Assembly: GCA_964016885.1 (NCBI GenBank)
Contig: OZ024741.1
Coordinates: 118,792,001-118,856,000 of the forward strand
Source: Eledone cirrhosa
Lineage: Eukaryota
DNA length: 64,000 nt
Direction: 5' to 3'
The translations under genes were made by a program, and so were the position numbers. Position 1 is the stretch's first letter; every line of letters begins with the position of its first letter. Under the pieces are notes generated by a model, which did not search any database, was not told the DNA's origin, and saw only the letters and a program-made list of their open reading frames with translations. Below, in pieces: positions 21,591 through 59,386 of this stretch.

Positions 21591-22002
21591 AGAATATTTT
21601 CGTATCGTGAGAGAGTAGAGGTTTAAAGGGATAAGCGATACATATAGTTAATTGCCAAAAGCTGGTGCATTTGTGCTCAATACTTGTGCCTACAGGGTTA
21701 AATATCGGAAGCGTTAATATTTAGCGGGTGAGAATATAAGCAGAGCGGTTACAAATGAAAGGATTACAAAGGAGAATACATACTGTCAGAACATGTTTAT
21801 ACACAAGCACCTACGTACGTTTCGCCCGAACAAGGCTTCTCAAGGGCATACAAGTCTAGAGAGTGTTCAGTACAGGGTTCTGTACTTAACACTCTCTAGA
21901 CTTGTATGCCCTTGAGAAGCCTTGTTCGGGCGAAACGTACGTAGGTGCTTGTGTATAAACATGTTCTAACAGTATGTATTCTCCTTTGTAATCCTTTCAT
22001 TT
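21591..22002. mobile_element. Fold-back element (arms 21753-21875 and 21880-22002) with hammerhead
   Basis: ~123-bp near-perfect inverted repeat plus one-sided extension, (TA)n flanks. Confidence 0.85.
21908..21948 (+). ncRNA. Minimal type I hammerhead ribozyme, U3-A8 core
   Basis: GCCC-UUGAGAA-GCCU[UGUUC]GGGC-GAAA-C[GUAC]G-UA^-GGUGC; palindromic stem III tetraloop; stem I imperfect. Confidence 0.65.
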
Positions 22003-22240
22003 ATATATATATATATCAGATCAGAGCAAACAGTACGGACACTCTATCTCAAAATTATTTTTGAAAAGCATTTAGAAATGCGCAACCGGTAAAAACTTAA
22101 AAACTTAAAACCACAACTGAATACTACCCCATACAATCACTAATACTCTTTTATTCCTAATTAAACCATTTTTCAACTGTGAACAATTTGTCAGCATTTT
22201 CTATTCCGTTTACCAATATATATATATATATATATATATG

Positions 22241-22663
22241 TAGGAGGTGAGTTTTATTGTAGTACAATAAAGCAATGCAGATATCGGATAAGAAGCACTC
22301 TACAGTTTGTGGGACTGGAGTATGCATAATATAAGATCAAAAGATGGTTAAAGGAGTTCAATATATTTTATTATGCGCATTTCAAAAACAAACATCATCA
22401 AACAATAATATTTGTGTTTTCATCAGATAAAACAGGAGAACATGATATGAAGGCTAAAAAAACACTTGTTGATAGTGCAGTTTTAAATCAACATATGTTG
22501 ATTTAAAACTGCACTATCAACAAGTGTTTTTTTAGCCTTCATATCATGTTCTCCTGTTTTATCTGATGAAAACACAAATATTATTGTTTGATGATGTTTG
22601 TTTTTGAAATGCGCATAATAAAATATATTGAACTCCTTTAACCATCTTTTGATCTTATATTAT
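22241..22663. mobile_element. Perfect fold-back element (arms 22326-22494 and 22495-22663) plus tail
   Basis: 169-bp arms with no spacer, centred on caacat|atgttg; (TA)n flanks. Confidence 0.9.
22557..22623 (+). ncRNA. Type I hammerhead ribozyme, canonical core (mirror copy on - strand at 22366-22432)
   Basis: UUUUAU-CUGAUGA-stem II (AAAUAUUAU/AUGAUGUUU)-GAAA-U[GCGC]A-UA^-AUAAAA; 6-bp stem I; predicted cut after 22617. Confidence 0.8.
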
Positions 22664-22753
22664 ATATATATATATATATATATATATATATATATATATA
22701 TATATATATCTATATATATATATATATATATATATATATATATATATATATAT

Positions 22754-22951
22754 GAAAAGTGTCTGGACCCTGACGCCAGAGCTCAAGCCGTTTCGACAGC
22801 TATTTCTGGACGTCCAGAAATAGCTGTCGAAACGGCTTGAGCTCTGCCGTCAAGGTCCTGACTCTTTTCCTATTACCCATTCTTCTACCCAAAGCATCGA
22901 GTACTCTGGTTCGTTATGGTCCACCTGGTTCCTTACCACACTTTCTTTGTT
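22754..22951 (+). mobile_element. Family A fold-back element, copy 5
   Basis: Centre ctatttctggacgtccagaaatag; tail; (TA)n flanks. Confidence 0.8.
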
Positions 22952-56975: not shown

Positions 56976-56981
56976 ATATAT

Positions 56982-57361
56982 ATGCATTGTATGGTTTTTA
57001 AAATTATTTAAATTTATACACACACACACATACACACACACATATATATATATATATATGTGTATAAATTTAAATAATTTTAAAAACCATACAATGCATT
57101 AGAAAATTAAAGGTGTCAAGATAACAATAGAGTCTTACCTTAGCAAATTTTATAATCCCAAATATTTTCGGGTTTACAAATCTATTATCAAAGGGGTATC
57201 CCTGTGAAAGCTTTAAAGGGTCGATCGGAGATGATTTGTTAGGAAGGCAGATAGTTAAATGGCATTAGTTTTTAAATTTGCTAAGGTAAGACTCTATTGT
57301 TATCTTGGCACCTTTAATTTTCTAATGCATTGTATGGTTTTCAAAATTACTTAAATTTATA
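56982..57361. mobile_element. Fold-back element with a degenerate U3-A8 hammerhead on the - strand (57155-57196)
   Basis: Arms ~57064-57150 and 57274-57361; minus strand cccct-TTGATAA...aaaccc-GAAA-atattt-gggat. Confidence 0.6.
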
Positions 57362-58259
57362 TTTCCCATTCAACAATGCTTCAAGCAAACTACAATACTC
57401 TGTTTTATATATATGTCTTGGCTGTGGCCAAGCTAACGATATACAATTAGGAACGTGCAGCAAAGCACTCAATAAAGTTGTAGGCCTTAGAGTAATAACA
57501 TACGTTTAGACAGCTTGACAAATTGAAAATTGCGGCAGGTAAGCCTAGCCACACACACACACACACACACACACACATATATATATCGTCATATATATAT
57601 ATATATATATATATATATATATATATATATATATATATATATATATATATATATATATATATATATATATATATATATATATTATATATATATATATATA
57701 TATATATATATATATATATATATATAAATTAGTCAGTAATACACATTACATCTCAATGAATAATATCGCTTAGAACATAATTCAGAGAACCTTATAAAAA
57801 CAAATGTAAATCTATCTTAAACAAGGCTGAGAATTAACTATAAGGAAGATCACATTAAAGTACCTTAAAATAAATGAAACCATGTGCGTATTTTTCCTGA
57901 GGCAAAATTAACTATTACCTCTTAATTGCAGTTTTCACAGACTAAACAGTCACAGAAATCTTCTATCTCAATCAAATGAGATTGAATATCTGCCTGAAAA
58001 CTTGTCTAATCATCGGAGAGGTTTTTTTCTGTTCCTAAAATGAAGTGAGACAAAATATATTTTACCTCTAGACAGATCTCTTTCCATCAGGAAATAATAT
58101 AAAATCTAGCATTGTGCACAATAACGTACGCATGCGTTGAATTTTCAAAAACGGCAAATATTCGTACAATATAGACGAGGTGACGAGAAAATATTTTGCT
58201 AGAAAATCGTCCTTCCACTCAACAGTAAAGAAGCAGTTTATATATATATATATATATAT

Positions 58260-59386
58260 ACATTATGAAGAGAGAAGAAACATTTAGATATAATTAGTAA
58301 TAAAATGTATCATACCTAAACTGCTTCTAAATTCCTCGACTACGTAGTTTCGTGGCATAAACAAAAACAATATATCATAAAGATATAGAGTCCTTGCGAG
58401 GTCTGCCGACTTATCAAGAGGATACCTCATTTTACTAGTCTCAAGAACGCGTCTACACGACGTGAGAAAGAATCCCAAAAGGCGGAGGGGGAGATAGTCA
58501 CGCGATATAACGGTCGAGAAACAGAGCTAAGCCTCTTATAACCCCGAAGAAAATACCACGGAGGCGGAGGGGGTATTTATATCGAGGCCGTAGAAGAGGT
58601 GGTGAAGGAGACGAGAAGTATGAGTAATGGAAGCTTTCCAGCTGTCCCCACACTTCAAAGATTGCTCGACCAGAGGGAGTTATTAACAATATATTTAGAA
58701 ACACACAGATACATGCGGACACACACATATATACATGAATGCATCCGCACCCAACTGTGAGTTAAGGGTGCCAACTTCACCGATGTTGCTCAATGAATGA
58801 CTGGGACAGACCAATTCAGTTGAACTAGACTGAACCATTATCAGAGTTAAAAATACATTATGAAGAGAGAAGAAACATTTAGATATAATTAGTAATATAA
58901 ATACCCCCTCCGCCTCCGTGGTATTTTCTTCGGGGTTATAAGAGGCTTAGCTCTGTTTCTCGACCGTTATATCGCGTGACTATCCCCCCCTCCGCCTTTT
59001 GGGATTCTTTCTCACGTCGTGTAGACGCGTTCTTGAGACTAGTAAAATGAGGTATCCTCTTGATAAGTCGGCAGACCTCGCAAGGACTCTATATCTTTAT
59101 GATATATTGTTTTTGTTTATGCCACGAAACTACGTAGTCGAGGAATTTAGAAGCAGTTTAGGTATGATACATTTTATTACTAATTATATCTAAATGTTTC
59201 TTCTCTCTTCATAATGTATTTTTAACTCTGATAATGGTTCAGTCTAGTTCAACTGAATTGGTCTGTCCCAGTCATTCATTGAGCAACATCGGTGAAGTTG
59301 GCACCCTTAACTCACAGTTGGGTGCGGATGCATTCATGTATATATGTGTGTGTCCGCATGTATCTGTGTGTTTCTAAATATATTGT
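58260..59386. mobile_element. Retrozyme/PLE-like element: permuted ~595-bp unit on the - strand followed by an inverted copy
   Basis: 58260-58580 and 58687-58896 are reverse complements of parts of 58897-59386; direct repeat at 58260 and 58855; (TA)n flanks. Confidence 0.85.
59055..59144 (+). ncRNA. Type I hammerhead ribozyme, U3-A8 core (identical copy on - strand at 58333-58422)
   Basis: UCCUC-UUGAUAA-GU(C)GGCA...UGCCAC-GAAA-CUACGUAG-UC^-GAGGA; predicted cut after 59139. Confidence 0.8.

What the first reader, a model, noticed from the sequence alone, without database searches (positions are those of the whole stretch)
21912..59066. Recurrent U3-A8 core covariation in four unrelated families
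Seen: cores UUGAGAA (21912), UUGACAA (26677), UUGAUAA (59060) and UUGAUAA (57191-57185, minus), versus CUGAUGA/CUGAGGA at 22563 and 56763. Established: C3-G8 is a Watson-Crick pair in the active hammerhead and U3-A8 is a known but uncommon functional substitute. Inference: repeated double substitution indicates selection for catalysis, and standard CUGANGA searches would miss these elements.
Basis: partly seen in the sequence, partly recalled or inferred. Interest (0 to 1): 0.72.

Follow-up and report, generated by a model that had tools for sequence, protein, structure and literature searches.

The report
Swapped-core hammerheads in Penelope retroelements
Several jumping-gene families in this animal genome end in hammerhead RNA motifs, predicted to cut themselves, whose core C-G pair is replaced by U-A; the swap is real and has happened repeatedly, but it was already described in such elements, and cutting is untested here.

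Summary
All six cores are at the stated places and sit in complete type I hammerhead folds; the 57191 copy has drifted, but its family motif is intact. They are 3' ends of Penelope-like elements (PLEs) or of their non-coding derivatives. Families at 21912 and 26677 follow Hydra-type ORFs, 57191 follows a Penelope/Poseidon-like ORF, and 59060 is a ~593-nt tandem retrozyme-like unit. Of 36 family seeds with two or more copies, 24 are C3-G8, 11 U3-A8 and 1 mismatched (3 copies). Of 251 motif copies in 1.53 Mb of evenly spaced genome samples, 191 are C-G, 47 U-A and 13 other. A PLE protein tree needs 4-5 changes of the pair. So pairing is selected, but catalysis is only inferred: an abundant family keeps C3-G8 with a fixed U4A change, and published work shows PLE insertion from uncut RNA. 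U3-A8 was reported in nature in 2011 and in PLE hammerheads in 2014 (~1,300 Schistosoma copies, missed by the C3-G8 descriptor). This scan noted the same variant before on other DNA of this genome. Verdict: well-supported new example of a known variant.

The parts
21700..22003 (.). Family A insertion: two inverted 3' ends of a Hydra-type PLE (palindrome, axis 21877.5), ending in (TA)n; left end not mapped beyond 21700
   Evidence: the motif lies about 340-356 nt after the ORF hit in 10 locus rows, some overlapping; full element L280
21908..21948 (+). Type I hammerhead motif, U3-A8 core 21912-21918, GAAA 21932-21935, 6-nt palindromic stem III, predicted cut after 21943
   Evidence: U3-A8 in 31 of 31 copies
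21807..21847 (-). Mirror copy of the family A hammerhead (core begins 21843)
22557..22623 (+). Family B hammerhead, canonical C3-G8 core 22563-22569; 3' end of a Hydra-type PLE
   Evidence: C3-G8 in 11 of 11 copies
22366..22432 (-). Mirror copy of the family B hammerhead (core begins 22426)
26672..26767 (+). Family C hammerhead, U3-A8 core 26677-26683, long stem II, hairpin stem III (could fold as a monomer), predicted cut after 26762; 3' end of a Hydra-type PLE
   Evidence: about 690 nt after the ORF; full element L201; U3-A8 in 42 of 43 copies
28140..28182 (+).
   Evidence: U3-A8 in 19 of 19 copies; limits approximate
56757..56849 (+). Family D hammerhead, canonical C3-G8 core 56763-56769; a second copy at about 55399 on the minus strand; no ORF tied to it
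   Evidence: C3-G8 in 7 of 8 copies
57156..57195 (-). Family E hammerhead, U3-A8 core 57191-57185, drifted copy; 3' end of a Penelope/Poseidon-like PLE
   Evidence: endonuclease coding sequence 300-400 nt upstream in L177, L190, L195, L200; U3-A8 in 30 of 30 copies
58253..59386 (.). Family F insertion: young (97-99% alike) non-coding unit of about 593 nt, found in head-to-tail tandems with inverted truncated copies, between (TA)n; retrozyme-like
59055..59144 (+). Family F hammerhead, U3-A8 core 59060-59066, 8-nt palindromic stem III, predicted cut after 59139
   Evidence: U3-A8 in 35 of 35 copies
58333..58422 (-). Mirror copy of the family F hammerhead (core begins 58417)

Best explanation
These are type I hammerhead motifs at the 3' ends of several Penelope-like retroelement families and their non-coding derivatives, and the 3-8 core pair has switched between C-G and U-A several times, likely because active lineages must keep that pair to fold and, probably, to self-cleave slowly. 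Shown: the motifs, their link to PLE ORFs (families A, B, C, E and the one at 28145), fixation of U3-A8 within families, near absence of mismatched family cores, and 4-5 changes on the protein tree. Inferred: selection acts on the element RNA in the few source copies, since inserted copies decay; short palindromic stems III (A, E, F) would need dimers from tandem transcripts, while C could fold alone; cleavage would trim tandem precursors or make circles for family F, probably with help from the element's protein, and is probably not needed at the insertion step.
For: Family cores: 24 C-G, 11 U-A, 1 C-A of 36 seeds (Fisher p 2e-8, but families are not independent, and C/C2, k3/k3b, k33/k42 and k28/k28cg are related pairs). 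Copies: 191 C-G, 47 U-A, 13 other of 251. Homologous retrozyme-like family: U-A 5, C-G 3, unpaired 0 of 8, with stems covarying. Family C in DNA-like contigs: position 7 varies (A 49%, G 11%, U 3% of depth) while no variant reaches 1% at positions 3 or 8. Tree: 5 changes forced by starred branches, 4 with multi-locus labels only; A and C rejected as one clade, p-AU 4e-6. Literature: natural U3-A8 and earlier in vitro activity (PMC3088659 section 8); U3-A8 in Schistosoma PLE motifs (PMC4209133); PLE hammerhead cuts only with protein and depends on the 3-8 pair (PMC11167929).
Against: No cleavage or expression data here. A very abundant family has A at position 4 in 42 of 42 copies yet keeps C3-G8 in 40 of 42, so success does not need a textbook core. 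U-A gave no rescue in one type III construct (PMC9901934). Genomic copies run 18-85 nt past the predicted cut, so templates were uncut or re-ligated. Several tree labels rest on one locus, and two first labels were wrong and had to be dropped. Changes on a protein tree could partly reflect exchange of 3' ends between families.
Confidence: 0.75

Rival explanations
1. The 3-8 pair is kept because the folded hammerhead is a handle for the element's RT/endonuclease protein (binding or initiation), with cleavage secondary or absent.
For: U4A family abundant (32 CAGANGA of 251 sampled copies) and U4C fixed in other families; copies extend past the cut site; catalytic mutants did not affect insertion in vitro and no reads began at the cut site (PMC11167929).
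Against: The 3-8 pair is a feature of the active conformation (PMC3884650 passage). G5, A6, A9, GAAA and H17 are kept across families (partly by ascertainment, as the scans required them). Naiad PLEs spread without canonical hammerheads (PMC8557442), so the fold is not a universal handle.
Confidence: 0.17
2. U3-A8 arose once or twice and spread among families by exchange of 3' ends, so the four families are not independent evidence.
For: U3-A8 families share G10.1-C11.1 more often (8 of 10 versus 7 of 23, hand-coded, p 0.02); PLEs insert beside each other, which allows template switching.
Against: No alignable DNA among U3-A8 families; they differ in stem II and III design; in the k28 family the switch sits inside one homologous 3' end (75.8% over 186 nt to a C3-G8 relative).
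Confidence: 0.06
3. The pattern is neutral: AT-biased mutation or chance motif matches in an AT-rich genome.
For: Both changes are transitions towards A/U; UUGANAA is the commonest such 7-mer in the window (63).
Against: Neutral drift would give more single changes than double ones; single mismatches are 11 of 251 copies and scattered; shuffles give about 1.5 U-A hits against 24.
Confidence: 0.02

Closest known systems
U3-A8 minimal hammerheads in pLTRs of Schistosoma mansoni Cercyon PLEs (Cervera and De la Pena 2014, PMC4209133; parts 1-2 of 4 read, supplement searched by keyword)
   Same: Same covariation, type I fold, palindromic or short stem III, extra base after A9 in some, inverted pairs 100-700 bp apart; about 1,300 U3-A8 hits missed by the first descriptor; UUGAUAA and UUGAAAA cores in the supplementary alignment.
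   Different: Here the variant is in about 10 families across Hydra-type, Neptune-like and Penelope/Poseidon-like ORFs and retrozyme-like units, with 4-5 changes on a tree; several have long stems II or III.
Natural hammerhead core variants (Perreault et al. 2011, PMC3088659; section 8 and passages read)
   Same: C3-G8 covaries to U3-A8 in several natural examples; cites earlier in vitro activity.
   Different: Scattered examples, not fixed high-copy retroelement families.
Hydra-clade PLEs (Craig et al. 2021, PMC8557442; keyword passages read)
   Same: DKT motif, CxCX5C linker, C-terminal endonuclease, (TA)n targets, 3' hammerhead: families A and C (and B, linker only).
   Different: The passages seen call Hydra hammerheads canonical; U3-A8 is not mentioned in them. 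Supplements not read.
Animal non-LTR retrozymes (PMC7229834, passages; bioRxiv 10.64898/2026.07.22.740005, part 1 of 5)
   Same: Family F: non-coding tandem unit with one type I hammerhead per unit.
   Different: Unit about 593 nt, longer than the 170-400 nt reported; U3-A8 core; circular RNA not shown here.

Membership tests
Type I hammerhead ribozyme | Core N3-UGA-N-N8-A and GAAA with three helices, open end in stem I | tested here: met
   the window copy of family E is drifted, the family motif is intact
Type I hammerhead ribozyme | Watson-Crick pair between positions 3 and 8 | tested here: met
   35 of 36 family seeds; 8 of 8 in alignment A1
Type I hammerhead ribozyme | A15.1-U16.1 pair and H17 at the cut site | tested here: met
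   GUA, GUC, UUU and GUC triplets for A, C, E and F
Type I hammerhead ribozyme | Match to an Rfam hammerhead model at gathering score | tested here: not met
   0 matches in the window, canonical motifs included; these short and long-stem forms fall outside the models
Type I hammerhead ribozyme | Site-specific self-cleavage | not testable with these tools
   no assay possible; minimum-energy folds of single window copies show stems I and II for C and F but not the hammerhead for A or E
Penelope-like element (EN+) | RT followed by GIY-YIG endonuclease upstream of the hammerhead-bearing repeat | tested here: met
   A (L280), C (L201), B (L083), E (L177, L190, L195, L200), 28145 family (L228, L253). 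Pfam names RT or GIY-YIG only for the Neptune-like and Poseidon-like proteins, not the Hydra-type ones
Penelope-like element (EN+) | Tandem or inverted 5'-truncated copies, short tail on one side, microsatellite targets | tested here: met
Hydra clade of PLEs (families A, C) | DKT motif and CxCX5C linker | tested here: met
   against the description in PMC8557442
Hydra clade of PLEs (families A, C) | Grouping with published Hydra reference proteins | not tested
   no reference sequences were in the tree; the names Neptune-like, Nematis-like and Poseidon-like rest on linker motifs and on recalled RT motifs
Non-LTR retrozyme (family F) | Non-coding tandem unit with one type I hammerhead per unit | tested here: met
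   592-595 nt period in L096, L164, L205; no ORF of 200 aa or more in the unit
Non-LTR retrozyme (family F) | Expressed as circular RNA | tested here: inconclusive
   no RNA run was listed; a 593-nt loop in one contig of unknown kind fits a tandem as well as a circle

The most novel reading that the evidence does not exclude
PLE hammerheads flip the 3-8 pair repeatedly, and the weaker U-A pair is tolerated mainly where G10.1-C11.1 braces the core, while position 4 is free to change. This genome would then be a natural mutational scan showing that PLEs select the active-state fold, perhaps for their protein, more strictly than fast cleavage.
Probability: 0.2. Interest if true: 0.5.

Novelty: new member of a known kind. 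Interest (0 to 1): 0.25.

Why it matters
Practical: about 1 in 5 hammerhead copies in this genome sample has U3-A8 (47 of 251; UUGANAA scales to roughly 86,000 genome-wide), and U4A/U4C cores add 38 more, so a CUGANGA-only search misses about a third. Biological: repeated paired switches show that selection on retroelement RNA sees the 3-8 tertiary pair. The families give ready matched pairs (U-A versus C-G in homologous context) to test what PLE hammerheads are for, which is still open. The variant itself is not new.

Tried and rejected
Rfam scan: nothing. Pattern searches of the whole genome for G8 versus A8 in family A gave 0 and 18 matches, but only best candidates are scored, so they are no census and are not used. 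Family F first seemed tied to a Nematis-like ORF (L164/L206); that ORF has its own C3-G8 motif about 205 nt downstream and F is a later insertion. Family D's apparent ORF link is a separate insertion. First trees carried two wrong C-G labels (L076, L248), set to unknown; seven rows were left out as fragments or near-copies; the AU tests did not finish. One search used a stem I register off by one; one search is the corrected count. A recurring A3-G8 cluster is the antisense strand of another element's 3' UTR. The one C-A 'family' is 3 copies in 2 loci, one of them C-G. No RNA holder listed for family F. The G10.1-C11.1 association is post hoc and hand-coded: a lead only. Papers not held: Lunse et al. 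on PLE hammerhead dimers and Przybilski and Hammann 2007; I saw only their titles and what other papers cite from them, and they may already hold more on U3-A8. Searches for prior reports; none listed a count of independent 3-8 switches on a PLE tree.

Full report
Observation. The window is repeat-rich animal DNA from a 3.0-Gb assembly. The 7-mers mean little alone: UUGANAA occurs 63 times in the window. Each named core, however, lies in a type I hammerhead layout. Family A (21912) has a short stem II and a 6-nt palindromic stem III. Family C (26677) has a long stem II and a hairpin stem III. Family F (59060) has a 5-bp stem I and an 8-nt palindrome. The 57191 copy (family E) has drifted, but its relatives show a 4-bp stem I, one extra base after A9 and G10.1-C11.1. 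A, B and F occur as inverted pairs, so the window also has mirror copies at 21843, 22426 and 58417. Rfam finds none of the motifs, canonical or not.

What they belong to. Genome searches returned 105, 43, 43 and 64 matches for A, C, F and E, all lower bounds. Family A motifs lie about 340-356 nt, and family C motifs about 690 nt, after an RT-endonuclease ORF. Those ORFs carry DKT and CxCX5C, the marks given for Hydra-clade PLEs (PMC8557442). Family B follows a related ORF. Family E follows a Penelope/Poseidon-like endonuclease in four loci; that clade name rests partly on recalled motifs. Family F is a non-coding unit of about 593 nt in tandems and inverted truncations between (TA)n, 97-99% alike, that is, retrozyme-like. 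Family D could not be tied to an ORF. The four U3-A8 families share no alignable DNA.

I took 153 evenly spaced 10-kb stretches (1.53 Mb, mostly from the four largest contigs) and scanned with positions 3 and 8 left free. Hits: C-G 46, U-A 24, and 16 over 13 other classes; shuffles gave 1.5 U-A and no C-G per replicate. With position 4 also free and motifs found by eye behind ORFs, I defined 38 seeds; 36 had two or more distinct copies. Of these, 24 are C3-G8, 11 U3-A8 and 1 C3-A8. The C-A case is 3 copies in 2 loci, one of them C-G. Four seed pairs are related, so U3-A8 families number about 10. In the evenly spaced sample, 251 non-redundant copies give 191 C-G, 47 U-A, 11 mismatched and 2 gapped. 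Contigs of two runs of one sample laid on family C show position 7 varying widely and no variant of 1% at positions 3 or 8; contigs drop rare variants.

Is it recurrent? In one retrozyme-like superfamily, homologous ends carry U-A (5) or C-G (3) and no mismatch (8 of 8), with stems covarying (75.8% over 186 nt between the two types). On a tree of 27 PLE protein rows, 20 labelled, starred branches force 5 changes; with multi-locus labels only, 4. Families A and C are rejected as one clade within the Hydra-type group (p-AU 4e-6): A is sister to a C3-G8 family, and C sits in a group with another. The root is not inferred, so gains and losses cannot be told apart. Earlier trees had two wrong labels, and exchange of 3' ends between families is not excluded.

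How it most likely works. The 3-8 pair forms in the active hammerhead (PMC3884650 passage). U3-A8 was found in nature and cited as active in vitro (PMC3088659). A PLE hammerhead cut only with its protein, lost activity in single 3 or 8 mutants and partly regained it in the G-C swap (PMC11167929). I infer that source copies are selected to keep the pair, and that palindromic forms work as dimers in tandem transcripts, as proposed in PMC4209133. The step from pairing to catalysis is inferred, at about 60-70% in my estimate.

Against a simple catalysis reading. A Hydra-type family has A at position 4 in 42 of 42 copies and is among the most abundant (32 of 251); other families fix U4C. In a full double-mutant scan of one type III hammerhead only the G-C swap rescued (PMC9901934), so U-A activity depends on context. 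Insertion in vitro used uncut RNA, and the window copies run 18-85 nt past the predicted cut. Most family C-like copies begin inside stem II and lack the core: depth rises more than 20-fold towards the 3' half (contig depth is no copy number), and 9 of 19 copies aligned keep the core region.

Comparison with what is known. Cervera and De la Pena 2014 describe this covariation in Schistosoma PLE motifs, state that their first descriptor missed it, and count about 1,300 copies against about 2,000 others; their supplement lists UUGAUAA and UUGAAAA cores. Earlier notes of this scan report U3-A8 and U4A on other DNA of this genome; they are leads, not support. One note says a family multiplied with a mismatched pair; I did not see this in family C as far as it could be laid. 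A weak lead: G10.1-C11.1 in 8 of 10 U3-A8 families against 7 of 23 C3-G8 families (hand-coded, post hoc).

Verdict. Observation confirmed; interpretation partly supported; a new, well-documented member of a known kind; interest 0.25.

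Noticed in passing
L066:1445 (-) and 29 other loci: Abundant Hydra-type family with CAGAAGA core (U4A in 42 of 42 copies, C3-G8 kept in 40), U-U at 10.1/11.1 and a hairpin stem III; scales to roughly 60,000 copies. Earlier notes of the scan report it.
   Followed up: partly
window 35048 (+), window 58016 (-), L067:5879 (+): U4C cores (CCGANGA): fixed in a diverged family of 12 hits with covarying stem II, and in a Hydra-type family with a copy in the window.
   Followed up: partly
window 34391 (+): Single decayed copy with a U3-G8 core, belonging to a C3-G8 family; G12 is also lost.
   Followed up: partly
   Followed up: partly
window about 400-560, 22754-22800, 52437-52532: Inverted, 5'-truncated family C-like ends that begin inside stem II and lack the core; such copies seem to outnumber complete ones.
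   Followed up: partly
window about 16130 (-): Repeat family (5 hits) with UUGACAA followed by a stem but GAGA or GAGG in place of GAAA; possibly a degenerate U3-A8 motif.
   Followed up: no
window 22040-22200: Repeat end distantly like the 28145 family, with UUGAAAA but GCAA in place of GAAA, also in L246 and L077.
   Followed up: no
window 6644-9435 and 37986-44186: Tandem arrays of 40 bp (70 copies) and 48 bp (127 copies); the second is stop-poor, with open frames of about 1,700 codons on both strands.
   Followed up: no
window 35396-36889 (+), 49803-51698 (-), 51006-51845 (+): Non-LTR RT fragments, two with C2H2-like zinc fingers (Pfam).
   Followed up: no
L040:1198 (-), L039:6791 and 7110 (-), L163, L239, L279: Tandem unit of about 319 nt with U3-A8 and a homologous C3-G8 sister family; a matched natural pair for assays.
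   Followed up: yes
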